Positions 5,778 to 14,421 of a stretch of DNA of 64,000 bases are shown here, piece by piece. The notes below the pieces were generated by a model. It made no database searches and was not told where the DNA came from. It was given only the letters and a program-made list of their open reading frames with translations. Each line of letters opens with the position of its first letter. Position 1 is the first letter of the stretch. Source of the DNA: an uncultured Clostridia bacterium (GTDB lineage: Bacteria; Bacillota; Clostridia; Christensenellales; Borkfalkiaceae); NCBI GenBank assembly GCA_944346885.1, contig CALVMR010000022.1, positions 5,924 to 69,923 on the forward strand, given 5' to 3'. A program made the translations under genes and the position numbers.

Positions 5778-5856
5778 GCGCCGCCGCTTTTGCGCGGGCG
5801 CCCTCTGCGTTTGGGTGCGCAAAAAACACCACATCAATTTGCAAAAACAACGGCTT

Positions 5857-6654
5857 TCATTTGCATACAGCCTCGGTTTTCAAGACCTTTAGATTTATCG
5901 TGGTATGAAATTCAATTTTAGCATTGCTATTTTTATGAGTTTCACAATATTTATTAAATCTTGTCACAAGCCATAAATACTTTGTAATCAGTTTTTCTCT
6001 TTCCAGTATTTTGCTCGGATCAGTGAGATTTCTATATCGACAAGTTGTATTAACCAACTTTTTTATATTAGTTCTAAGAATTGTATCATCGCTATCTTTG
6101 CCAAAAGAATCAAAGAGTTGAACATAATAAAAATCATCTTCATCCTTTGAGATATAGCCTTGCCTTTCGAGCGCCTCTAAAACAGAAGAAGAAAATTTTT
6201 TGTTTTTGTTGTCTAAAATAATTCTGGGATATACGGCAAACTTATTTTCCAAGGTATATACATCAATAAGTCCTTTCCCAAATATAAAATCTTTGTTGAC
6301 ATAAAATTTACCTATTGTAATCCCGCCTCTAATCAAAATAGAATACTTTTCAAGAAGGCGTCTTTGTATTTGTTGGGTCAAGAATGAAAGTGCAGTCATT
6401 GCCCCCAACTCATTATTCTCATGTTTTATATAAAACAGAAAATTATCAGAATATGCTCTAAATTTGACATTCACATCATTTAATGAAAGAGTAATATTTA
6501 CGCTCTTTTTCATGTCTTCAATTGCACTTTGAATCACAGACAAAAAATCGTATGGATCACTTTCATTTTCAAAATATGATTTATAACCTAATATATCAAA
6601 ATAAGCGAGATAATAGTCCTGTAGTTCATCCTGTTTAAAATTAAAAAAGAACAT
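5857..6654 (-). CDS. Stand-alone palm-domain nucleotide cyclase-like protein (GGDEF / class III cyclase / minimal CRISPR-polymerase-like fold) with an uncharacterised C-terminal domain
   Basis: 265 aa, very AT-rich. Ordered motifs:
- YLAYFDILGYKSYF (first metal Asp, D20)
- VKFRAYSDNFLFYI (GGDEF-like position, D70)
- ILIRGGITIGKFY (R109-GG)
- FGKGLIDVYTLE (helix following the palm). Confidence 0.5.
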   Translation of the reverse strand: MFFFNFKQDELQDYYLAYFDILGYKSYFENESDPYDFLSVIQSAIEDMKKSVNITLSLNDVNVKFRAYSDNFLFYIKHENNELGAMTALSFLTQQIQRRLLEKYSILIRGGITIGKFYVNKDFIFGKGLIDVYTLENKFAVYPRIILDNKNKKFSSSVLEALERQGYISKDEDDFYYVQLFDSFGKDSDDTILRTNIKKLVNTTCRYRNLTDPSKILEREKLITKYLWLVTRFNKYCETHKNSNAKIEFHTTINLKVLKTEAVCK

Positions 6655-6702
6655 TGTTGGTATTTCCTATGTTATGTTTTTTATTCCTTAACGAATCAAG
6701 GT

Positions 6703-8145
6703 TTACTTTCTCCCATTCCTCACCTGCTCTACATAGCCGAGAAGGTACAGGAACGCTGGCGCGGGGATGCGGTAGACGCTCTTTTCGCCGTAGGAATGGA
6801 GCCCGAAATCTTCTGAACGCTTGGTTATGACAAGGTTTGGATACTTTGCGCCCGCCTCCGTCACAATGGCGTCATCCTCCGCGATCTTCGCCTGTTCGCG
6901 GTACTTGACCTCGATCATGATGGGCTCAAATCGTTCCGACTTGACAACGATATCGATCTCCTTGCCCTTCCCGCCGCCACGGTAGTAGCCGACCGTAGGC
7001 GCATCTTCATAATAAAACGCCTTGATATGCTTATAAACCGCCGTCTCGGCAATGAGACCGAGTTCTTCGTGGTCGTTGGTGATGTCGTCCTTCATCAGAA
7101 CGGCGTTGCGCATGGCGGCATCGGCAATGTAGATCTTGTTTTGGTTCTTCAAGACCTTCTTTGCGTCGAGCGTGACGAGCGGGCTCACATAGATAAGGCT
7201 GGCGCTCTCCAGATATCCGATATACTTTTCGATGGTCGTGCGGCTGACGCCGTCCATCTCCTTGCCCATCGTCTGCAAGTTGATAATATTGGAAGAATTG
7301 TAGCAGAGGTACAAAAAGATGCGCTCGATATCGGCGATATTGCGGATACCGTAGATGGCGGGGATATCGCGCTTCAATGCCTTATCGACGATATCCTCCC
7401 GGAGAACGCGCTGGGCGTACAGATCGTCCTTGCTCAATGCGAGTTCGGGGAATCCGCCCACTTGCAGATAGCGGATGAAATGCACTTGCAGCACGGAGAG
7501 CTTGCGCAAAATGTCCTGCTGTTCGCGCTCGTCGCGCAAGTACAGCTGCGTTGGCTTGATGTCCTGCGGCATCGGCGGCAAGGAAATTTGCAGTAGTTCG
7601 CAGTATTCGTAAAAGGAGAGCGTCGGCACATGAATGACCTTCCAACGCCCCAAACCGCTCTCGCTCGTCTTGTCCGAGAGGATGGGACTTGCCGAGCCCG
7701 TCGCCATGATCTTGATCTTCGGATCGGTGTCGTATAATATCTTCAGCCAGTTGTTCCAGTCGGCGGCGTATTGGATCTCGTCGAAGAAACAATACACCGT
7801 TTCACTGGCAGAGATGTTGGAGCGGAAGGTCTCCATGACGGTATTCACCGAACACAGCTTCAAAAGCGGATGATCGAAGGAGACAAAGAGGATGTCCTTG
7901 GGGGAAACTCCCTGCTCCAACAGCGCGGAGATCGCCTGATACATGATGGTCGTCTTACCCGTGCGCCGGGCGCCGCACAGAACGACGGAGCGACGGATAT
8001 CCTCGCGCATCATGCAGCGGAATGCCTCAAAGTAGGCAAAGCGGTGCATGGGCTTGACGAATTCCTTTTGAATAAAGCCCGTCCTCCACCACGGATTGTA
8101 GGAATACAGAAGATCTAAAACATTTTCACGGTTGACGATAGACAT
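6703..8145 (-). CDS. AAA+ ATPase (COG1373 / AAA_14-DUF4143 type) with a C-terminal PD-(D/E)xK-like motif
   Basis: Start set at ATG 8145 (MSIVNRENVLDLLYSYNPWW), with AGGAGGG upstream. Walker A GARRTGKTT, Walker B VYCFFDEIQY. The C-terminal GKEIDIVVKSERFEPIMIEVKY matches a D...E-x-K nuclease-fold pattern. Confidence 0.75.
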   Translation of the reverse strand: MSIVNRENVLDLLYSYNPWWRTGFIQKEFVKPMHRFAYFEAFRCMMREDIRRSVVLCGARRTGKTTIMYQAISALLEQGVSPKDILFVSFDHPLLKLCSVNTVMETFRSNISASETVYCFFDEIQYAADWNNWLKILYDTDPKIKIMATGSASPILSDKTSESGLGRWKVIHVPTLSFYEYCELLQISLPPMPQDIKPTQLYLRDEREQQDILRKLSVLQVHFIRYLQVGGFPELALSKDDLYAQRVLREDIVDKALKRDIPAIYGIRNIADIERIFLYLCYNSSNIINLQTMGKEMDGVSRTTIEKYIGYLESASLIYVSPLVTLDAKKVLKNQNKIYIADAAMRNAVLMKDDITNDHEELGLIAETAVYKHIKAFYYEDAPTVGYYRGGGKGKEIDIVVKSERFEPIMIEVKYREQAKIAEDDAIVTEAGAKYPNLVITKRSEDFGLHSYGEKSVYRIPAPAFLYLLGYVEQVRNGRK

Positions 8146-8164
8146 GGTTGCCCTCCTTGCGGAT

Positions 8165-8193
8165 AGTATAGCATAGAAATTTACTTCATGCAA
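8165..8193 (-). promoter_or_regulatory. Sigma-A-type promoter for the AAA+ ATPase gene
   Basis: In minus sense, TTGCAT-17 nt-TATACT with an upstream TGc (extended -10). It lies about 20 nt ahead of the AGGAGGG RBS. Confidence 0.6.
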
Positions 8194-8277
8194 GACTTTT
8201 AGCAATTATTCTTTATGAAATTGCTATTACAGTAGTAATTATTTGCCGAAAACGATTTATATATACTGATAACGCAC

Positions 8278-8309
8278 CATCCCCCGATCCGAAACCGGAT
8301 CGGGGGATG
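8278..8309 (-). terminator. Perfect 14-bp hairpin immediately downstream of the XRE gene
   Basis: CATCCCCCGATCCG-aaac-CGGATCGGGGGATG. No clear U-tract in minus sense (TGTTTT on the plus side). Confidence 0.45.
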
Positions 8310-8313
8310 TGTT

Positions 8314-8604
8314 TTACAAGCTCTTCAAAAAGGCGACCAAAAGTTGGCGTTGGGAGGGCGAGAGGGATGCGAGGCGGAATGTGTAATTTTCTTCCTCGTT
8401 GGGATAGTCGAAAAATTCTTTCAGCGTCACACCAAGCACATCGCAAATATTATCCAACACTTCTACCGTGGGACATTTTTTCCCTTTTTCCAAATCCGGA
8501 ATATAACTGGGCGACACGCCAGCTTCTGACGCAAGTTTACACTTTGAAATCCCCTTCTTTTGCCGCAACACTTGAATGCGCTTGCCTATTTCTTTTCGAT
8601 CCAT
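8314..8604 (-). CDS. XRE-family helix-turn-helix transcriptional regulator (candidate controller of the adjacent R-M-like operon)
   Basis: 96 aa. IGKRIQVLRQKKGISKCKLASEAGVSPSYIPDLEKGKKCPTVEVLDNICDVLGV is a canonical Cro/C1 HTH. GAGGGA RBS. It is divergent from the methyltransferase operon. Confidence 0.85.
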   Translation of the reverse strand: MDRKEIGKRIQVLRQKKGISKCKLASEAGVSPSYIPDLEKGKKCPTVEVLDNICDVLGVTLKEFFDYPNEEENYTFRLASLSPSQRQLLVAFLKSL

Positions 8605-8620
8605 AGCATCCCTCGCAATT

Positions 8621-8638
8621 AAACTATAGTCATAGTTT
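8621..8638. promoter_or_regulatory. Operator-like inverted repeat 1 (AAACTAT-N4-ATAGTTT)
   Basis: AAACTATAGTCATAGTTT lies between the XRE start codon and its promoter, and contains the palindromic core ACTATAGT. Confidence 0.5.
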
Positions 8639-8673
8639 ATATCTTTTTTTGCAAAATTACTTTCACTATGGTA

Positions 8674-8702
8674 TTGATATTATTATACTATTGTGATATA
8701 AT
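8674..8702 (+). promoter_or_regulatory. Sigma-A-type promoter of the methyltransferase/helicase operon
   Basis: TTGATA (8674-8679), a 17-nt spacer, then TATAAT (8697-8702) with TGa extended -10. A minus-strand TATAAT (8682-8687) sits back-to-back with it for the XRE gene. Confidence 0.65.
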
Positions 8703-8706
8703 GATT

Positions 8707-8718
8707 TAACTATAGTTA
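8707..8718. promoter_or_regulatory. Operator-like perfect palindrome 2 (TAACTATAGTTA)
   Basis: It shares the ACTATAGT core with operator 1 and sits at about the predicted transcription start of the methyltransferase operon. Confidence 0.5.
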
Positions 8719-8735
8719 TAACAAACCTTATCAAA

Positions 8736-9407
8736 ATGAAACATACGATCCAAACCAAATCAAAAGAGCGCGTGCGCGACCACGGGGAAGTATTCACGGC
8801 GGAACGGGAAGTAAAGGCGATGTGCGACCTCGTAAAAGACGAAACCGAGCGCATCGACAGCCGATTTTTAGAGCCTGCCTGCGGGGACGGCAACTTTTTG
8901 GCCGAAATTCTGACGCGCAAACTCGCCGTTGTGCGCAAAAAGTACGTCAAAAGCCATTTAGACTACGAAAAAAACGCCGTACTTGCGGCAAGCAGTATTT
9001 ACGGCGTGGATATTTTGCAAGACAATGTGATCGCCTGCCGCGAGCGGATGTTCGGGATATGGGATAAAGAGTACACCGCCGTATGCAAAAAAGATTGCAA
9101 CGACGAAACGCGCGCGGCGGTCAAATTTATCCTTTCCCGCAATATCGTATGCGGAAATGCGCTCACGCTTATGTGCGTGGACGAAAGCGGCAACGACACA
9201 AAAGAGCCGATCGTCTTTTCCGAATGGGCGTTTATCACGGGCAGCCAAATGCAGCGGTGCGATTATACGTTTGCGGAACTGCTCGCCCAAGATGACAACA
9301 AGCAAAAGTCAAAACAACAATCTATATTTGACGCTAAGCCGAGCGAAGAGGGCAAATTTTTGAAGCGGTATATTTCTCACTACAGGAAGGTGCAGGAAAA
9401 TGGCTGA
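8736..9407 (+). CDS. Methyltransferase-like protein: a SAM-binding half of a gamma-class N6A DNA methyltransferase, lacking the catalytic NPPY motif
   Basis: 223 aa. Motifs: HGEVFTAEREV (N-terminal GEVFTP-like), FLEPACGDGNFL (motif I), YGVDIL (motif II-like), NIVCGNALTL (motif III-like). There is no (D/N/S)PP(Y/F/W) anywhere. It overlaps the next ORF by 8 nt (ATGGCTGA). Confidence 0.6.
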   Translation: MKHTIQTKSKERVRDHGEVFTAEREVKAMCDLVKDETERIDSRFLEPACGDGNFLAEILTRKLAVVRKKYVKSHLDYEKNAVLAASSIYGVDILQDNVIACRERMFGIWDKEYTAVCKKDCNDETRAAVKFILSRNIVCGNALTLMCVDESGNDTKEPIVFSEWAFITGSQMQRCDYTFAELLAQDDNKQKSKQQSIFDAKPSEEGKFLKRYISHYRKVQENG

Positions 9408-10908
9408 AAGTCTGTTTAACAAGGTATATACCCCCGACGTACTATCCTGCCTTGCCAACCTTTCCAACGACGAAGTATTTACGCCGCCCGAAATCGTCAA
9501 TCAGATGCTGGATATGCTGCCGCAGGAACTGTTCAAAAACCCCGACACGACGTTTTTAGACCCTGCCTGCAAGACAGGCGTATTTTTGCGAGAGATCGCA
9601 AAACGGCTCATCAAGGGGTTAGAACCACAATTCCCCGATTTGCAGGAACGCATCGACCATATCTTCCACAAACAGCTCTTCGGCATCGCCATTACGGAAC
9701 TTACAAGCCTGCTATCCCGCCGCGGCATTTATTGCAGTAAGTACCCGAACAGCGAATTTTCGGTAAGCCGTTTTGATACTGCCGAAGGGAATATCCGCTA
9801 TAAGCGTATTCCGCATACATGGAAAGACGGCAAGTGCATCTATTGCGGCGCAAGCCAAAAGGAATACGACCGCGGCGGCGAGCTAGAAACGCACGCCTAC
9901 GAATTTATTCACACGATAACCCCGGAGAAACTTTTCGATATGAAATTTGATGTGATCATCGGCAACCCGCCCTATCAGTTGAGCGACGGCGGCGCACAAG
10001 CAAGTTCAATGCCGCTGTATCAAAAATTTGTCTCCCAGGCAAAAAAATTAAACCCGCGCTATTTAACCATGATAATCCCTGCTCGTTGGTACGCCGGCGG
10101 CAAAGGATTGGATGATTTCCGTAATAATATGTTACATGATAGACATATTAGTCATTTACATGATTTTCCCATATCTTCTGATTGTTTTCCAGGGGTACAA
10201 GTAGAGGGCGGCGTTTGTTTTTTTCTATGGGATAAAGAGTATAACGGAGATTGTTCCGTGATAACACATAACGGAAATAAAATAACCTCAATAGCGAAAA
10301 GACCTCTTTTACAAGAAGACAGCGCAACTTTTATCCGTTATAACGACGCAATTAACATCCTCAATAAAGTGAAAAAATTTGCCGCTCCTTCATTCTGCTC
10401 ATTAGTCAGCAGCAGAAAGCCTTTTGGACTAACCTCAACGTTTAATTCTTTTTTAGATAAACCTAATGTAGATAGTATAAAAATTTATGCCAATAAAAAA
10501 ATAGGCTATATTGAAAATATTTACATAACGACAAATAGAGACTGGCTAACACGGTACAAAGTCTATATAAGTTATGCTTATGGCATGGGCGATACTTTTC
10601 CTGTTCAAGTAATTAATAAACCTTTTATAGGAGAACCACAGACAGGCTGTACGGAAACATACTTATTGATAGGACCATTTGACACAAAAAAAATAGCGAA
10701 TAATGTTATAAGTTATATTAAGACTAAATTTTTTAGATTTTTAGTATTATTGATGAAAAATACGCAACATGCCACCAACAAAGTTTATCAATTCGTTCCC
10801 ATGCAAGACTTTTCAAAACCGTGGACAGACGAAGAACTATATCAAAAATACGATCTTTCGCAAGAGGAAATCGACTTTATCGAAAGCATGATAAAACCCA
10901 TGGAGTAG
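9400..10908 (+). CDS. Site-specific DNA adenine-N6 methyltransferase, Eco57I/TaqI-like gamma class, with a C-terminal recognition domain
   Basis: DEVFTPPEIVNQMLDMLP, FLDPACKTGVFL (motif I), DVIIGNPPYQ (motif IV). There is a Cys/His insert (CIYCG...HAYEFIH) and a conserved tail, WTDEELYQKYDLSQEEIDFIESMI. Confidence 0.85.
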   Translation: MAESLFNKVYTPDVLSCLANLSNDEVFTPPEIVNQMLDMLPQELFKNPDTTFLDPACKTGVFLREIAKRLIKGLEPQFPDLQERIDHIFHKQLFGIAITELTSLLSRRGIYCSKYPNSEFSVSRFDTAEGNIRYKRIPHTWKDGKCIYCGASQKEYDRGGELETHAYEFIHTITPEKLFDMKFDVIIGNPPYQLSDGGAQASSMPLYQKFVSQAKKLNPRYLTMIIPARWYAGGKGLDDFRNNMLHDRHISHLHDFPISSDCFPGVQVEGGVCFFLWDKEYNGDCSVITHNGNKITSIAKRPLLQEDSATFIRYNDAINILNKVKKFAAPSFCSLVSSRKPFGLTSTFNSFLDKPNVDSIKIYANKKIGYIENIYITTNRDWLTRYKVYISYAYGMGDTFPVQVINKPFIGEPQTGCTETYLLIGPFDTKKIANNVISYIKTKFFRFLVLLMKNTQHATNKVYQFVPMQDFSKPWTDEELYQKYDLSQEEIDFIESMIKPME

Positions 10909-10914
10909 CACGCC

Positions 10915-13815
10915 ATGCCACAAAACTTTTTCATTCAGCGGCCGAAGGTCACGCCAACCATTTACGCCTATCTCCTTATAGGCGTTTCCTCGCACGACGG
11001 GTACTTAAAAATCGGCTACACCGACCGCGATGCGGAAACGCGCGTCAAAGAGCAATTACATACAAGCGGCGTGCCGTATCAGATCGTCTTGAAAGAGAGC
11101 GCCATGCGTGCGGACGGCACTTGTTTTACCGACCATGATATTCATGCCGCCCTGCGCCGCAAAGGGTTTTACCAATTAAACGAAGGGCAGGATAAAAACG
11201 AATGGTTCCGCTGCGGCGAGCGCGACGTGCTTGCCGCCATCCATGAGGTGCGCGACGGCATCTTATCGCAGGAAAACCGCACGGCGACCTTCAAAATGCG
11301 CCCCGAACAGCAGCTCGCCGTGCAAAAGACGATGGACTATTTTGCTTCCGCAAAACAGGAAGAGCCGAACAAAGCCCCGAAATTTTTGTGGAACGCGAAA
11401 ATGCGCTTCGGCAAGACGTTCGCCGCCTATCAGCTCGCCAAAAAAATGGGCTTGAAGCGCGTTCTTGTGCTCACTTTCAAGCCCGCGGTTGAGAGCGCTT
11501 GGCGGGAAGACCTTTTAACGCACGTCGATTTTGAGGGCTGGCAGTTTATCTCCAACAAGGACGCACACGACAACAAAGTCAACATCGACCGCCAATACGA
11601 GCAGGCGGATAAAAGCCGCCCGATCGTTGTGTTCGGTTCTTTTCAAGACCTTTTGGGAACAAACGAAAACGGCGGCATCAAAGCAAAAAACGAGTTCATT
11701 CACAGCGACAACTGGGATCTCGTCGTGTTCGACGAATACCACTTCGGAGCATGGCGCGAAAACGCGAAAAAGCTGTTTGATAACCCTGACGAAGAAGCGG
11801 ACAGCGACTTCGATATGGAAAAATACAAGCGCGATGAGGCGGATAACGCTTATAACGAGACCTTTCTGCCCATCACGACGGACTATTACCTCTTTTTATC
11901 GGGCACGCCCTTCCGCGCCATTAACAGCGGCGAATTTATCGAAGATCAGATCTACAACTGGACGTATTCGGACGAACAGCGCGCCAAAGAGAGTTGGATA
12001 GGCTCGAACAACCCCTACCTGTCTTTGCCGCGCATGGTGATGCTCACCTACCGCATCCCCGAAAGCATCCGCCAGATCGCCATACAGGGCGAATACGACG
12101 AATTCGACCTCAACGTGTTCTTTTCCGCAAAGGGTAAGGGCGACGACGCGCATTTTATCTACGAGAATGAAGTGCAAAAATGGCTCGACCTCATCCGCGG
12201 CGCCTATTTGCCTTCGAGCATCGACGACTTGAAATTGGGGCAGGACAAGCGCCCTCCCATGCCCTATTCGGACGTGCGGCTGCTGAACGTTTTGACGCAT
12301 ACCCTATGGTTTTTGCCCAATGTGGCGAGCTGCCAGGCGATGGCAAACCTCTTAAAACAGCGGCAGAACGCCTTCTATCACGATTATACCGTCAACGTGT
12401 GCGCGGGCACGGCGGCGGGCATCGGGCTGGACGCATTGCGTCCCGTACAGGCTTCCATGCAGGACCCGCTGCAAAGCAAGACGATCACTCTCTCCTGCGG
12501 CAAATTGACGACGGGCGTCACCATCCGTCCGTGGACGGGCATCTTTATGCTGCGCAACTTAAAATCGCCCGAAACGTATTTTCAGGCGGCGTTCCGCGTG
12601 CAGAGCCCGTGGGAAATCACCGACGACAACGGCGACAAGCGCATCATAAAGCAGGAATGTTATGTGTTCGACTTCGCGCTCGACAGGGCACTTAGGCAGA
12701 TCTCCGACTATTCCTGCCGCCTCAACGTCGAGGAGAGCAACCCCGAAAAGAAGGTGGCGGAGTTCATTCACTTCCTGCCCGTGCTTGCCTACGACGGCAG
12801 CACGATGAAGCAGGTAGACGCGCAGGACATCCTCGACATCGCCATGGCGGGAACGAGCGCAACGCTGCTTGCCAAGCGTTGGGAATCGGCTTTGCTCGTC
12901 AATGTGGATAACGAAACGCTCGCCCGCTTGTTGAGCAATCAGGACGCGTTGGACGCACTCATGCGTATCGAGGGTTTCCGCTCGCTCAATCAGGATATTG
13001 AAACTATCATTAATAAGTCCGAACACGTCAAAAAGGCGAAAAAAGAAAACGACGGGAAAATTTCGGCCAAAGAGAAAAAGGAACTTTCCGACGAAGAAAA
13101 GGAATATAAGTCCAAACGCAAGGAGATCCAGGAAAAACTCATCAAGTTCGCCACGCGCGTGCCGGTGTTTATGTATCTGACCGATTACCGCGAACGCTCG
13201 CTCAAAGACGTAATCACGCAGTTGGAGCCGGGGCTTTTCAAAAAGGTAACGGGGCTGAACGTCAAAGATTTTGAACTTTTGTGTTCTCTCGGCGTGTTCA
13301 ATGCTCCGCTGATGAACGACGCGATCTTTAAATTCAAACGCTACGAAGATTCGAGCCTTTCCTATACGGGCATTGAAAAGCATATTTCCGACGAGATCGG
13401 CGGCTGGGATACTACGATCCGCCGCGAGGAATACGAAAAGCTGTTCTATAATCAACAAGCCACGATGGAGACGCCCGCCTTTGATGAAGAGATCGCGGCG
13501 GCTGCGGTCAGCGCCCGCGTTTCGGAAAAAGAGGGCGATTTTGAGAATGCAATGAAAGCCGATACCGCGACCGTCGATGCCGCACCGCCTGCCGTCTACA
13601 CGACCATTGCCGAAGTAACGCCCGAAAAACAGGCGCCAGCATTCGATCTTTCCGCTCTTGCGGAAGGAGACACAGTTCTGCACGCCAAGTTCGGCGAAGG
13701 GAAGATCGTCAAGCTCGACAAGTCGGGGAAATATATTCACGTCACTTTCTCCGTCGGCGAAAAAACCTTTGCAAACAACGCCTTTGAACAGGGATTTTTG
13801 AGATTGAAGGAATAA
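10915..13815 (+). CDS. Restriction-type SF2 helicase with an N-terminal GIY-YIG/T5orf172-like nuclease domain and a C-terminal UvrD/PcrA Tudor-like domain
   Basis: N-terminus: TIYAYLL...GYLKIGYTDRDAETRVKEQL...NEWF (GIY-YIG/T5orf172 pattern). Helicase motifs: I AKMRFGKTF, II VVFDEYHF, III FLSGTPF, VI-like FQAAFRVQSP. C-terminus: GDTVLHAKFGEGKIVKLDKSGKYIHVTF. Confidence 0.8.
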   Translation: MPQNFFIQRPKVTPTIYAYLLIGVSSHDGYLKIGYTDRDAETRVKEQLHTSGVPYQIVLKESAMRADGTCFTDHDIHAALRRKGFYQLNEGQDKNEWFRCGERDVLAAIHEVRDGILSQENRTATFKMRPEQQLAVQKTMDYFASAKQEEPNKAPKFLWNAKMRFGKTFAAYQLAKKMGLKRVLVLTFKPAVESAWREDLLTHVDFEGWQFISNKDAHDNKVNIDRQYEQADKSRPIVVFGSFQDLLGTNENGGIKAKNEFIHSDNWDLVVFDEYHFGAWRENAKKLFDNPDEEADSDFDMEKYKRDEADNAYNETFLPITTDYYLFLSGTPFRAINSGEFIEDQIYNWTYSDEQRAKESWIGSNNPYLSLPRMVMLTYRIPESIRQIAIQGEYDEFDLNVFFSAKGKGDDAHFIYENEVQKWLDLIRGAYLPSSIDDLKLGQDKRPPMPYSDVRLLNVLTHTLWFLPNVASCQAMANLLKQRQNAFYHDYTVNVCAGTAAGIGLDALRPVQASMQDPLQSKTITLSCGKLTTGVTIRPWTGIFMLRNLKSPETYFQAAFRVQSPWEITDDNGDKRIIKQECYVFDFALDRALRQISDYSCRLNVEESNPEKKVAEFIHFLPVLAYDGSTMKQVDAQDILDIAMAGTSATLLAKRWESALLVNVDNETLARLLSNQDALDALMRIEGFRSLNQDIETIINKSEHVKKAKKENDGKISAKEKKELSDEEKEYKSKRKEIQEKLIKFATRVPVFMYLTDYRERSLKDVITQLEPGLFKKVTGLNVKDFELLCSLGVFNAPLMNDAIFKFKRYEDSSLSYTGIEKHISDEIGGWDTTIRREEYEKLFYNQQATMETPAFDEEIAAAAVSARVSEKEGDFENAMKADTATVDAAPPAVYTTIAEVTPEKQAPAFDLSALAEGDTVLHAKFGEGKIVKLDKSGKYIHVTFSVGEKTFANNAFEQGFLRLKE

Positions 13816-13875
13816 ATTGCAAATTTTATCAGATCATCAGGTTGCGCCGAAACTCATAAACCTTGATCAACGGCT

Positions 13876-13911
13876 ACGGCGGGGGCTTCGTATGAAGCCC
13901 CCGCCGTTTTT
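13876..13911 (+). terminator. Intrinsic terminator of the methyltransferase/helicase operon
   Basis: ACGGCGGGGGCTTC-gtat-GAAGCCCCCGCCGT followed by TTTT. It abuts the stop codon of the convergent 148-aa gene. Confidence 0.8.
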
Positions 13912-14356
13912 ACAACTTCTTGTTTTTGAATATATCTGGATAATTATCTCTTAATAATTTTTCGTTTTTAGCAATATTTTTACATAATATTGCGCCATAA
14001 ATTACTTTTCTACTATTAAGATACTTGCGCCTGTTTAATTGAAGGGTAGCCGTTGATTTGCGACTTTTCATATGATCATACAACCGAAATCCTAGATCGC
14101 TATCTTTACCCCAATATAACGGATAAATATTTCCATCTATAGGCTTCCATTCATTAAAACTTAAAGATGAATTTTTATTATGTTTCTCAAAAAAATCTTC
14201 TTTTTCATCATCCGCTAATTCAATAGCTATACCATAAACCCCACCCCGTTCTTCTAATTTACACCCATCGTCTGAAAATGTAATAGTTCCGGCTAAACAA
14301 TCTAAATAATCATCTTTAATTAGTCTTTTCATTAACAAAGTAATCGCATTGTCCAT
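13910..14356 (-). CDS. Hypothetical small protein with possible GIY-YIG-like motifs
   Basis: 148 aa, very AT-rich. GVYGIAIE ... PLYWGKDSDLGFRLYDHM ... NEKLLRDNYPDIF loosely follows the GIY / YIG-K-x-x-L-x-x-R / E...P pattern, but with an unusually long GIY-to-YIG spacer. Confidence 0.35.
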   Translation of the reverse strand: MDNAITLLMKRLIKDDYLDCLAGTITFSDDGCKLEERGGVYGIAIELADDEKEDFFEKHNKNSSLSFNEWKPIDGNIYPLYWGKDSDLGFRLYDHMKSRKSTATLQLNRRKYLNSRKVIYGAILCKNIAKNEKLLRDNYPDIFKNKKL

Positions 14357-14381
14357 GGCTTTCTCCTTTTAAATAAATTTT

Positions 14382-14421
14382 AAAGGCGAATCCGTCTCCT
14401 AATGGAAACGGGTTCGCCTTT
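14382..14421 (-). terminator. Terminator of the tRNA operon
   Basis: 14-bp stem AAAGGCGAATCCGT / ACGGGTTCGCCTTT (one G-U pair), followed in minus sense by TAAAATTTATTT. Confidence 0.65.

What the first reader, a model, noticed from the sequence alone, without database searches (positions are those of the whole stretch)
8736..13815. Atypical ATP-dependent restriction-modification-like operon with a GIY-YIG + SF2 helicase + Tudor protein
This is a three-gene plus-strand operon.
- Gene 1 is a methyltransferase-like half protein.
- Gene 2 is a gamma-class N6A methyltransferase (DPACKTG, GNPPYQ) with its own recognition domain.
- Gene 3 is a 966-aa protein.

In gene 3, the nuclease module is an N-terminal GIY-YIG/T5orf172-like domain (IYAYLL...YLKIGYT...R...E...NEWF). 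That differs from the C-terminal PD-(D/E)xK nuclease of classical Type III Res or Type I HsdR. The nuclease is followed by DExH helicase motifs (GKT, DEYH, SGTP). The protein ends in a GxVxHxxFGxGxV motif like the RNA-polymerase-binding Tudor domain of UvrD/PcrA. A Tudor tail on a restriction-type translocase suggests coupling to transcription complexes, which would be unusual.
Basis: partly seen in the sequence, partly recalled or inferred. Interest (0 to 1): 0.7.

Follow-up and report, generated by a model that had tools for sequence, protein, structure and literature searches.

The report
GIY-YIG motor restriction-modification operon
This is an intact copy of a very widespread but biochemically unstudied ATP-driven restriction-modification system: a DNA methylase that picks the target site, a DNA motor with a GIY-YIG-type nuclease, and a small methylase-like helper. 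In this lineage the motor also carries a tail like the RNA-polymerase-binding domain of the repair helicase UvrD.

Summary
Three translationally coupled + strand genes sit at 8736-13815.

- g1 (223 aa) keeps only the N-terminal SAM-binding motifs of a gamma-class adenine methyltransferase.
- g2 (502 aa) is an Eco57I-family N6A methyltransferase with invariant NPPY and a hypervariable recognition domain.
- g3 (966 aa) reads T5orf172/GIY-YIG nuclease, SF2 dsDNA translocase, helical domain, disordered linker, PcrA/UvrD-type Tudor domain.

The trio is syntenic in nearly all of about 65 informative loci from many phyla. At least 598 species genomes encode a g3 relative. It lies in defence islands, plasmids and a phage. 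Abortive-infection cargo is often inserted between g2 and g3, and recognition-domain swaps occur between strains. Single-chain nuclease-motor-methylase relatives exist on Enterococcus and Lactococcus plasmids.

Best reading: an ATP-dependent restriction-modification system that works like Type ISP or Type I, but with a GIY-YIG nuclease and an extra pseudo-methylase subunit. Systems of this sort were predicted in 2009 and 2012. I found no biochemical characterisation.

The Tudor tail is real and restricted to one subclade. It keeps all four residues that PcrA uses to bind RNA polymerase, but binding is untested. Tudor domains on defence motors already have precedent in BREX-related helicases.

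Verdict: new variant of a known kind, moderate interest.

The parts
8314..8604 (-). Divergent Cro/C1-type HTH regulator (96 aa), probably a C-protein-like controller of the operon
   Evidence: HTH_3 matches at E=6e-13. The PADLOC 'Control_protein' model matches at 3.9e-10. A homologue lies divergently upstream of g1 in L004, L005, L007, L011, L042 and L055, with a weak match in L068.
8620..8718 (+). Promoter and operator region. It holds palindromic boxes TAAACTATAGTCATAGTTTA (8620-8639) and TAACTATAGTTA (8707-8718), which flank a near-consensus extended -10 promoter (TTGATA-17-TATAAT, 8674-8702).
   Evidence: The promoter scan scores 11/12 with a TG extension. The sequence was read directly. 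The same (A/C)ACTATAGT(G/T) boxes recur in the equivalent intergenic regions of L004, L005, L011 and L055.
8736..9407 (+). g1: a small, conserved methyltransferase-like subunit. It keeps motif X (GEVFT), motif I (EPACGxGNF) and motif II (YGV[D/E]). It has no NPPY; an invariant PI(V/I)FxEW stands in its place.
   Evidence: Family matches, alignments and motif counts. The AF2 model has pLDDT 76. The best structural matches are the CamA and LlaBIII methyltransferase domains, and they are weak. More than 8000 homologues were scored and all 240 listed are about 195-250 aa. It always sits directly upstream of g2, or of the fused protein.
9400..10908 (+). g2: Eco57I-family gamma-class N6-adenine DNA methyltransferase with its own target-recognition domain
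   Evidence: PF07669 matches at 3e-36. PADLOC MTase_II PDLC03375 matches at 4.5e-65, and PDLC03626 positions 863-1359 are also covered. The catalytic motifs are invariant.
10225..10824 (+). Hypervariable target-recognition domain of g2 (residues about 276-475)
   Evidence: Mean pairwise identity is 0.14-0.42 here, against 0.56-0.84 in residues 1-275. There is no DNA similarity to L004 across 10139-10688, although the flanks are 88-90% identical.
10915..13815 (+). g3: 966-aa nuclease-translocase
10936..11259 (+). T5orf172 (GIY-YIG superfamily) nuclease domain, residues about 8-115
   Evidence: PF10544 matches at E=1.7e-8 and MUG113 at 1.5e-5. Y17, K32, G34, R43, D73 and E96 are conserved in 62-67 of 67 ungapped sequences in A3, and in 81-82 of 82 in the locus set. 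pLDDT is about 90. T5orf172 is a proven nuclease domain in ICP1 Odn (PMC8263062).
11290..12714 (+). SF2 helicase-like ATPase core, with motif I GKT, motif II DEYH, motif III SGT and motif VI QxxFR
   Evidence: ResIII matches at 4e-7. The motifs are invariant. Foldseek matches are Snf2 remodellers (Chd1, ISWI), EcoR124I HsdR, ZorD and LlaBIII, at E=1e-8 to 1e-11.
12715..13449 (+). Conserved helical C-terminal domain of the motor (residues about 601-845), function unknown
   Evidence: It is mostly helical in the AF2 model. Mean pairwise identity is 0.6-0.84. It is present in Tudor-less relatives.
13450..13632 (+). Disordered, unconserved linker (residues 846-906)
   Evidence: pLDDT is below 50. 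Mean pairwise identity is 0.06.
13633..13812 (+). PcrA/UvrD-type Tudor domain (residues 907-966)
   Evidence: G918, H923, F926, G927, G929, F945, K950 and G960 are invariant in 17 diverse tails. H923, F926, K950 and F952 align with PcrA H681, W684, K712 and L714, and K950 aligns with UvrD K708 (PMC5397179).

Best explanation
An ATP-dependent restriction-modification (R-M) system made of three proteins, under a C-protein-like HTH controller.

- g2 (methylase plus a single recognition domain) binds a short, probably asymmetric DNA site. It N6-methylates one adenine to mark host DNA.
- At unmethylated sites it engages g3. The Snf2/HsdR-like motor of g3 pulls double-stranded DNA using ATP. Its N-terminal GIY-YIG/T5orf172 domain cuts DNA away from the site, probably when translocation stalls or two motors collide, as in Type ISP and Type I enzymes.
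- g1 is a non-catalytic methylase-like subunit that probably still binds SAM. It is an obligatory partner, either an adaptor or licensing subunit between methylase and motor, or a co-activator of methylation.
- The C-terminal Tudor domain on a flexible ~60-residue linker is a lineage-specific tether. It most likely binds the TGE beta-hairpin of RNA polymerase beta (or UvrB) that PcrA/UvrD use.

Shown here: domain identities, intact catalytic motifs, conserved three-gene synteny, hypervariable recognition domain, defence-island and mobile-element context.

Inferred: hemimethylation, translocation-coupled cleavage, the role of g1, and the Tudor partner.
For: -
- Active-site motifs of all three proteins are invariant across 58-82 homologues.
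- The g1-g2-g3 order is kept in nearly every locus with enough upstream DNA, in Clostridia, Bacteroidales, Fibrobacter, Anaerolineae, Coriobacteriia, Negativicutes, Proteobacteria, Deinococcus and Actinobacteria.
- A fused T5orf172-helicase-Eco57I methylase protein of 1319-1464 aa exists and is still preceded by a g1-like gene. This shows that motor and methylase act as one machine. One PADLOC model, PDLC03626, spans both g3 and g2.
- The variable region is confined to g2 residues 276-475. A recognition-domain swap separates the window from its near-identical island in L004.
- Cargo between g2 and g3 includes HEPN_Apea, Abi_2, AAA_21+DUF4276, DUF2971 and Schlafen. This resembles what I recall of cargo inside Type I R-M loci.
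- Neighbours include CBASS and a PDC-S01 defence candidate. The system is also carried by a phage and by plasmids.
- The g3 motor is structurally closest to dsDNA translocases: Chd1/ISWI, EcoR124I HsdR, ZorD and LlaBIII.
- T5orf172 has demonstrated nuclease activity elsewhere (PMC8263062).
- The Tudor contact residues are conserved (PMC5397179, PMC8318588).
- An operator and promoter arrangement is shared with relatives.
Against: - No biochemical or genetic data exist for this family.
- The loosely analogous B. subtilis DnmA-YeeB-YeeC cluster gave no restriction or phage-defence phenotype (PMC9973331), although that paper reports that the Vibrio crassostreae homologues did.
- T5orf172 domains can also act as DNA-binding modules.
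- g1 has no convincing structural match (best Foldseek E=0.12), so its role is a guess.
- The Tudor domain falls below Pfam's gathering score as a single sequence.
- No helicase-interaction motif was found in the window to point to a partner.
- The recognition sequence and the strandedness of methylation are unknown.
Confidence: 0.75

Rival explanations
1. The system is methylation-based defence that does not cleave in the classical way, like BREX or DISARM. g3 would act as a translocase that blocks replication or remodels invading DNA. The T5orf172 domain would serve mainly as a DNA-binding or nicking module.
For: The motor is closest to Snf2-type remodellers. T5orf172 has been discussed as a DNA-binding domain (PMC9973331). 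Extra non-catalytic partners are typical of BREX-like systems, and MANTIS needs co-regulators for methylation (bioRxiv 10.64898/2026.09.23.753747).
Against: There are no PglZ, BrxC, BrxL or DrmB-type partners in the window or in the related loci. The GIY-YIG Tyr, Arg and Glu residues are invariant, which argues for catalysis.
Confidence: 0.12
2. The Tudor tail does not couple restriction to transcription. It would instead bind UvrB or another host protein with a TGE hairpin, bind DNA, or dock back on the complex as an autoinhibitory or assembly element.
For: The PcrA/UvrD C-terminal domain uses the same surface for UvrB and RNAP (PMC8318588). The tail is missing in most family members, and other members carry different tails such as GYF_2. 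So it is dispensable for the core mechanism. A few tails have lost the His or Phe (L022, L077).
Against: H923, F926 and K950 are invariant, and F952 is conservatively kept, in 17 diverse tails. The long disordered linker mirrors that of PcrA (PMC8318588). The isolated PcrA C-terminal domain does not bind DNA (PMC5397179). There is no TGE motif in g1-g3.
Confidence: 0.4
3. The window copy is a decaying or domesticated relic. g2 would act as an orphan epigenetic methylase, and g1 and g3 would be inactive, as proposed for B. subtilis DnmA-YeeB-YeeC.
For: The B. subtilis precedent (PMC9973331). The island has no recognisable integrase or attachment repeats in the window.
Against: All three ORFs are full length compared with their homologues, and every catalytic motif is intact. 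A near-consensus promoter and operator are present. The closely related L004 allele has swapped its recognition domain, which suggests ongoing selection.
Confidence: 0.08

Closest known systems
Type ISP restriction-modification enzymes (LlaGI, LlaBIII)
   Same: Both have an N-terminal nuclease, an SF2 dsDNA motor, a gamma-class N6A methylase and a single recognition domain. Fused relatives of g3+g2 have exactly this domain order. LlaBIII is a structural hit for both g3 (E=7e-9) and g1 (weak).
   Different: The nuclease is T5orf172/GIY-YIG, not Mrr-type PD-(D/E)xK. In the window the motor and the methylase are separate proteins, and the methylase gene comes first. There is an extra conserved g1 subunit. 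There is no sequence-level match to LlaGI or LlaBIII. The Tudor tail is absent from Type ISP.
Type I R-M (HsdR of EcoR124I)
   Same: The motor subunit has an N-terminal nuclease, an SF2 translocase and a helical C-terminal region. It is separate from the methylase (Foldseek 2w00_B E=5e-10 over ~800 columns). From my recollection of Type I R-M loci, defence cargo is inserted between the methylase and motor genes in the same way.
   Different: There is no HsdS; the recognition domain is built into the methylase. The nuclease fold differs. The methylase is Eco57I-family rather than HsdM.
DnmA(YeeA)-YeeB-YeeC clusters (MmeI-like methylase + SF2 helicase + T5orf172 protein)
   Same: The parts list is the same: a gamma-class N6A methylase with its own recognition domain, an SF2 helicase and a T5orf172/GIY-YIG domain. 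Morgan et al. 2009 predicted these to act as a helicase-dependent R-M system (PMC2731913). PMC9973331 reports that the Vibrio homologues affect phage sensitivity.
   Different: Here nuclease and helicase are one polypeptide with the nuclease at the N-terminus. The methylase is Eco57I-type. g1 is an additional conserved gene.
MANTIS (Gao_RL) and BREX-related systems
   Same: Both are methylation-based defences. The effector is an N-terminal nuclease plus an SF2 motor. Accessory proteins are needed alongside the methylase. Tudor domains occur on the Snf2-type helicases of BREX type 3 and BREX-related systems (PMC12839542; bioRxiv 10.64898/2026.09.23.753747).
   Different: MANTIS uses a PLD nuclease, an AAA+ loader (MtsA) and MtsB. 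The BREX-related Tudor is N-terminal and RapA-like, not a C-terminal PcrA/UvrD type. No BREX core genes are present here.
PcrA/UvrD C-terminal Tudor domain
   Same: Both are a five-strand Tudor fold at the extreme C-terminus behind a disordered linker. The His, aromatic, Lys and hydrophobic residues of the RNAP/UvrB-binding face are conserved (PMC5397179).
   Different: Here it is attached to an SF2 restriction-type motor rather than an SF1 repair helicase. Partner binding has not been tested.

Membership tests
Type ISP R-M | All activities in a single polypeptide | tested here: not met
   The window has separate g2 and g3 genes. Fused relatives do exist.
Type ISP R-M | Mrr-family PD-(D/E)xK nuclease at the N-terminus | tested here: not met
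   The N-terminus is T5orf172/MUG113, of the GIY-YIG clan.
Type ISP R-M | SF2 dsDNA translocase plus a gamma N6A methylase with one recognition domain | tested here: met
Type ISP R-M | Sequence homology to LlaGI or LlaBIII | tested here: not met
   phmmer of g3 and of g2 against PDB sequences found no LlaBIII or LlaGI chain at E<1. Only fold-level similarity was found.
Type I R-M | Separate HsdS specificity subunit with two recognition domains | tested here: not met
   No HsdS-like ORF was found in the operon or its relatives. The variable region lies inside g2.
Type I R-M | HsdR-like motor (nuclease, SF2, helical domain) separate from the methylase | tested here: inconclusive
   The architecture and fold resemble EcoR124I HsdR, but the nuclease fold differs and TM-scores are low (about 0.3).
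Type III R-M | Beta-class Mod with an inserted recognition domain, and Res with a C-terminal PD-(D/E)xK nuclease | tested here: not met
   g2 has gamma-class motif order (X, I, then IV NPPY) with a C-terminal recognition domain. The g3 nuclease is N-terminal and GIY-YIG.
Type IIG/IIL (Eco57I, MmeI) | Nuclease and methylase in one chain, ATP-independent cleavage at a fixed distance | tested here: not met
   g2 has no nuclease domain. The partner g3 carries intact ATPase motifs.
DnmA-YeeB-YeeC type clusters | MmeI-family methylase lacking a nuclease, with a separate SF2 helicase and a separate T5orf172 protein | tested here: not met
   g2 is Eco57I-family, not MmeI_Mtase. Helicase and T5orf172 are fused in g3. 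Homology of g3 to YeeB or YeeC was not tested because no sequences were available.
GIY-YIG superfamily / T5orf172 | Profile match above the curated threshold | tested here: met
   PF10544 scores 35.3 bits against a cutoff of 20, and PF13455 scores 25.9 against 22.3.
GIY-YIG superfamily / T5orf172 | Catalytic Tyr (GIY), Arg and metal-binding Glu retained | tested here: met
   Y17, R43 and E96 are present in 62-67 of 67 ungapped sequences and in 81-82 of 82 sequences. The assignment of these residues follows PMC8263062.
GIY-YIG superfamily / T5orf172 | Nuclease activity | not testable with these tools
   This needs biochemistry.
PcrA/UvrD Tudor domain (PF21196) | Profile match | tested here: inconclusive
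   The single sequence scores 16.9-21.5 bits, below the cutoff of 23.9. The family profile hits solved UvrD C-terminal domains at 1.3e-7, and all 17 tails hit PF21196.
PcrA/UvrD Tudor domain (PF21196) | Five-strand Tudor fold at the extreme C-terminus behind a flexible linker | tested here: met
   AF2 places strands at 920-923, 927-934, 940-945, 948-953 and 962-964 with pLDDT >90. The linker at 845-906 has pLDDT <50.
PcrA/UvrD Tudor domain (PF21196) | Conserved partner-binding residues (PcrA H681, W684, K712, L714) | tested here: met
   H923, F926 and K950 are invariant, and F952 is hydrophobic (PMC5397179).
PcrA/UvrD Tudor domain (PF21196) | Binds RNAP beta or the UvrB TGE hairpin | not testable with these tools
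   This needs a pull-down. The host rpoB and uvrB genes are not in the window.
BREX / BREX-related / MANTIS | PglZ, BrxC/MtsA AAA+, BrxA/B/L or MtsB partners | tested here: not met
   None were found in PADLOC or Pfam scans of the operon and its neighbours. PglX matches only weakly through shared methylase motifs.
C-protein-controlled R-M | Small HTH gene next to the operon, with palindromic boxes at the promoter | tested here: met
   The HTH is linked in only a minority of loci, and actual regulation is untested.

The most novel reading that the evidence does not exclude
Two linked readings remain open.

1. The UvrD-type Tudor tail physically tethers a restriction translocase-nuclease to host RNA polymerase, through the conserved TGE hairpin of the beta subunit. 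Restriction would then be recruited to, or triggered by collision with, transcription complexes on newly entered DNA. That would be a transcription-coupled R-M system.

2. g1 would be a dead methyltransferase that senses SAM or adenine methylation state and licenses the motor, playing the role METTL14 plays for METTL3.
Probability: 0.25. Interest if true: 0.75.

Novelty: new variant of a known kind. Interest (0 to 1): 0.5.

Why it matters
ATP-dependent restriction enzymes studied so far (Types I, ISP and III) all use PD-(D/E)xK nucleases. This family is present in hundreds of species, on plasmids of Enterococcus and Lactococcus, and in gut phages. It pairs the same kind of motor with a GIY-YIG nuclease and adds an obligatory pseudo-methylase.

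- Characterising it would fill a gap flagged since 2009.
- It would give new methylation specificities for gut anaerobes.
- It could explain barriers to genetic manipulation of these organisms.
- If the Tudor tail really binds RNA polymerase, it would be a clean, mutationally testable case of a defence motor using the host transcription machinery.

Tried and rejected
- **Sequence search against solved structures.** For g3 and g2 it gave only the UvrD tail, with nothing for the motor or the methylase. Homology to Type ISP is therefore not demonstrable at the sequence level.
- **NCBIfam.** It has no model for g3 and only weak N-terminal hits for g1 and g2.
- **PADLOC.** It gives no named system, only a generic 'Type IIG' model and PDC-S57.
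- **Fold search of g1.** It returned no significant match; the best was CamA at E=0.12. The 'half methylase' call therefore rests on motifs.
- **Attachment-site repeats.** A search for repeats bounding the low-GC island found nothing convincing.
- **PcrA helicase-interaction motif.** A search in g1-g3 and in the whole window found none.
- **Tails of Tudor-less relatives.** Tails such as P0122 look like PD-(D/E)xK by eye, but Pfam gives only E=0.25, so I make no claim.
- **Direct comparison with B. subtilis YeeB and YeeC.** This was not possible because I had no access to those sequences.
- **Artefact check.** I considered and rejected the idea that g1 is a gene fragment or a frameshift artefact. 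It is a conserved short protein, about 195-250 aa in all 240 listed homologues, with invariant motifs across phyla.

Full report
**Observation.** g1 is 8736-9407 (223 aa). g2 is 9400-10908 (502 aa) and overlaps g1 by 8 nt. g3 is 10915-13815 (966 aa) and starts 6 nt after g2. They lie in a low-GC stretch (about 44-52% against about 60%, roughly 5850-14400) that abuts a tRNA-Glu/Met/Met cluster. A near-consensus extended -10 promoter (TTGATA-17-TATAAT, 8674-8702) sits 33 nt upstream of g1. A Cro/C1-type HTH gene is transcribed divergently at 8314-8604.

**Domain identities, g1 and g2.**
- g2 is an Eco57I-family gamma-class N6-adenine methyltransferase (PF07669 E=3e-36; PADLOC MTase_II 4.5e-65).
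- Its EVFTPP, DPxxK(S/T)G and NPPY motifs are invariant in 69 homologues.
- g1 keeps motif X (GEVFT), motif I (EPACGxGNF) and motif II (YGV[D/E]). It is homologous to g2 only over those 53 columns (hhalign 97%).
- g1 has no NPPY. An invariant PI(V/I)FxEW stands where motif IV would be.
- Its AlphaFold2 model (pLDDT 76) has only weak fold matches, to the CamA and LlaBIII methylase domains.

**Domain identities, g3.**
- It carries a T5orf172 domain (PF10544 E=1.7e-8, above threshold) and MUG113. I know both as members of the GIY-YIG clan.
- It also matches ResIII, plus a sub-threshold PcrA_UvrD_tudor hit.
- Across 71 and 82 homologues the putative catalytic Tyr17, Arg43 and Glu96 are essentially invariant. 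So are helicase motifs I (GKT), II (DEYH), III (SGT) and VI (QxxFR).
- T5orf172 is a demonstrated nuclease domain in phage ICP1 Odn (PMC8263062).
- The AlphaFold2 model of g3 (pLDDT 81.7, pTM 0.75) shows a compact N-terminal alpha/beta domain, two RecA-like lobes and a helical domain to about 845. A disordered linker (845-906) and a five-strand beta domain (907-966, pLDDT >90) follow.
- Foldseek places the motor among dsDNA translocases: Chd1, ISWI, SNF2h, EcoR124I HsdR, ZorD and LlaBIII (E about 1e-8 to 1e-11).

**The Tudor tail.**
- A profile of 17 diverse tails hits the solved UvrD C-terminal Tudor domains at E=1.3e-7 (7egs_B, 6yi2_A). It hits D. radiodurans UvrD at 3.8e-5 and PcrA more weakly.
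- All 17 tails hit PF21196, and 11 also hit CarD_TRCF_RID.
- The invariant residues of the tails are G918, H923, F926, G927, G929, F945, K950 and G960.
- In the HMMER alignment, H923, F926, K950 and F952 correspond to PcrA H681, W684, K712 and L714, and K950 to UvrD K708. Mutation of those PcrA/UvrD residues weakens RNA polymerase binding (PMC5397179).
- The PcrA/UvrD surface binds a TGE beta-hairpin in RpoB SI1 and in UvrB (PMC8318588). No such motif occurs in g1-g3 or anywhere in the window.
- The tail is not a family feature. Most full-length relatives are 800-870 aa and end at about residue 845. A few have other tails, such as a GYF_2 insert or unidentified extensions.
- Within the subclade closest to the window, about 60 of 82 sequences carry the tail. 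Their hosts include Clostridia, Bacteroidales, Fibrobacter, Anaerolineae, Negativicutes and others.

**Comparative evidence for a single machine.**
- g3 relatives number 4293 clusters at 50% identity (1153 at E<1e-30). They occur in at least 598 species genomes.
- In the 80 fetched loci, plus plasmid and metagenome examples, g1-g2-g3 are adjacent in that order wherever enough upstream DNA is present.
- On Enterococcus, Lactococcus, Lactiplantibacillus and Staphylococcus plasmids the motor and methylase are fused into one T5orf172-helicase-Eco57I protein of 1319-1464 aa. A g1-like gene still precedes it. One PADLOC 'Type IIG' profile (PDLC03626) spans both g3 and g2.
- Variation is concentrated in g2 residues 276-475 (pairwise identity 0.14-0.42 against 0.56-0.84 elsewhere).
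- The same island in a related strain (L004) has a flanking gene 97.6% identical, g3 93% and g1 91%. Its recognition domain has been replaced, with no DNA similarity across 10139-10688.
- About 20 loci carry cargo between g2 and g3: HEPN_Apea, Abi_2, AAA_21+DUF4276, DUF2971 and Schlafen/AlbA_2.
- Neighbours include CBASS and PDC-S01. A Heliusvirales gut phage carries the whole trio.
- These are the hallmarks of a mobile restriction-modification system under diversifying selection for specificity.

**Regulation.**
- Palindromic boxes of the form (A/C)ACTATAGT(G/T) flank the promoter at 8620-8639 and 8707-8718.
- The same boxes recur two to four times in the equivalent regions of L004, L005, L011 and L055.
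- The HTH matches PADLOC control-protein models and is linked to the operon in seven loci.
- This fits C-protein-type control, although most family members lack the HTH.

**Mechanism proposed.**
- g2 recognises a short site through its single recognition domain and methylates one adenine. The likely hemimethylation of an asymmetric site is inferred from the single-domain architecture it shares with Eco57I/MmeI/Type ISP/BREX methylases.
- At unmodified sites g2 engages g3. g3 then translocates dsDNA with ATP and cuts with its N-terminal GIY-YIG domain when it stalls or collides. This is inferred by analogy with Type ISP and Type I.
- g1 is an obligatory non-catalytic partner. My preferred guess is an adaptor or licensing subunit, a vestigial 'second M' that docks the motor, or a co-activator of methylation as MANTIS needs MtsA and MtsB (bioRxiv 10.64898/2026.09.23.753747). 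This step is the weakest.
- The Tudor tail on its ~60-residue tether most likely binds the RpoB or UvrB TGE hairpin. Whether that recruits the enzyme to transcribed invader DNA, handles motor-RNAP collisions or links to repair cannot be decided here.

**Relation to known systems.**
- It works like a Type ISP or Type I enzyme but is a member of neither. The nuclease fold differs, it is split, it has an extra subunit, and no sequence-level homology to LlaGI or LlaBIII is detectable.
- It shares its parts list with the DnmA-YeeB-YeeC clusters that Morgan et al. predicted to be helicase-dependent R-M systems (PMC2731913). The B. subtilis copy is phenotypically silent (PMC9973331). The methylase family, the fusion state and g1 all differ.
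- Sisakova et al. 2012 noted uncharacterised relatives 'which utilize different endonuclease families (e.g. GIY-YIG)' (PMC3553950).
- Tudor domains on defence Snf2-type helicases are described for BREX type 3 and BREX-related systems, but there they are N-terminal and RapA-like (PMC12839542).
- I found no paper that characterises this family.

**Verdict.** The R-M reading is strongly supported by comparative genomics, and the transcription-coupling idea is plausible but untested. The system is a new variant of a known kind. It is widespread, annotated piecemeal and conceptually anticipated, but mechanistically unexplored. Two testable features stand out: the pseudo-methylase g1 and the UvrD-type Tudor tail.

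Noticed in passing
window 8620-8639 and 8707-8718; L004, L005, L011, L055 intergenic regions: Conserved palindromic (A/C)ACTATAGT(G/T) boxes flank the g1 promoter next to a divergent HTH gene. They look like C-protein operators.
   Followed up: partly
window 10139-10688 compared with L004: The same chromosomal island in a related strain has near-identical flanks but a completely replaced g2 recognition domain. This is an allelic specificity swap.
   Followed up: yes
L001 6954-7982; L013 2058-3996; L014 3846-4874; L061 6096-6947; L079 1309-2754 and others: The g2-g3 junction is a hotspot for inserted defence cargo: HEPN_Apea, AAA_21+DUF4276, Abi_2, DUF2971 and Schlafen/AlbA_2+HATPase_c_4. Several other inserted ORFs have no Pfam match.
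   Followed up: partly
L084 (PV036449.1, phage NatCom_35866) 6685-11916: A complete Heliusvirales phage genome from human faeces carries the g1-g2-g3 trio. Its g3 is 74% identical to the window's and includes the tail.
   Followed up: partly
window 6703-8205 (-): A 500-aa AAA_14/DUF4143 ATPase matches the PADLOC candidate system PDC-S01 (E=1.5e-65). It lies directly upstream of the operon and is 97.6% identical in L004.
   Followed up: no
window 5857-6654 (-) and 13910-14356 (-): Two ORFs (265 aa and 148 aa) inside the low-GC island have no match in Pfam, NCBIfam or PADLOC, and no counterpart in the related loci.
   Followed up: partly
window 9058-9078 and 10226-10246: A 21-nt near-repeat (19/21 identical) lies in g1 and g2, and both copies encode WDKEY. 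It could be chance or a trace of gene conversion between the two methylase-like genes.
   Followed up: no
P0122 and P0153 C-terminal ~270 residues; P0177 residues 693-737: Tudor-less g3 relatives carry other C-terminal modules. One has a D..D-x-K...Q...Y motif reminiscent of RecB-type PD-(D/E)xK nucleases (Pfam only E=0.25). Another has a GYF_2 insert. The C-terminus looks like a swappable accessory slot.
   Followed up: partly
L001 1-4184: A CBASS operon (Cap2-like ThiF, SMODS cyclase, SAVED effector) lies immediately upstream of the homologous trio. It sits on an element that also carries Mob_Pre and a phage-type integrase.
   Followed up: no
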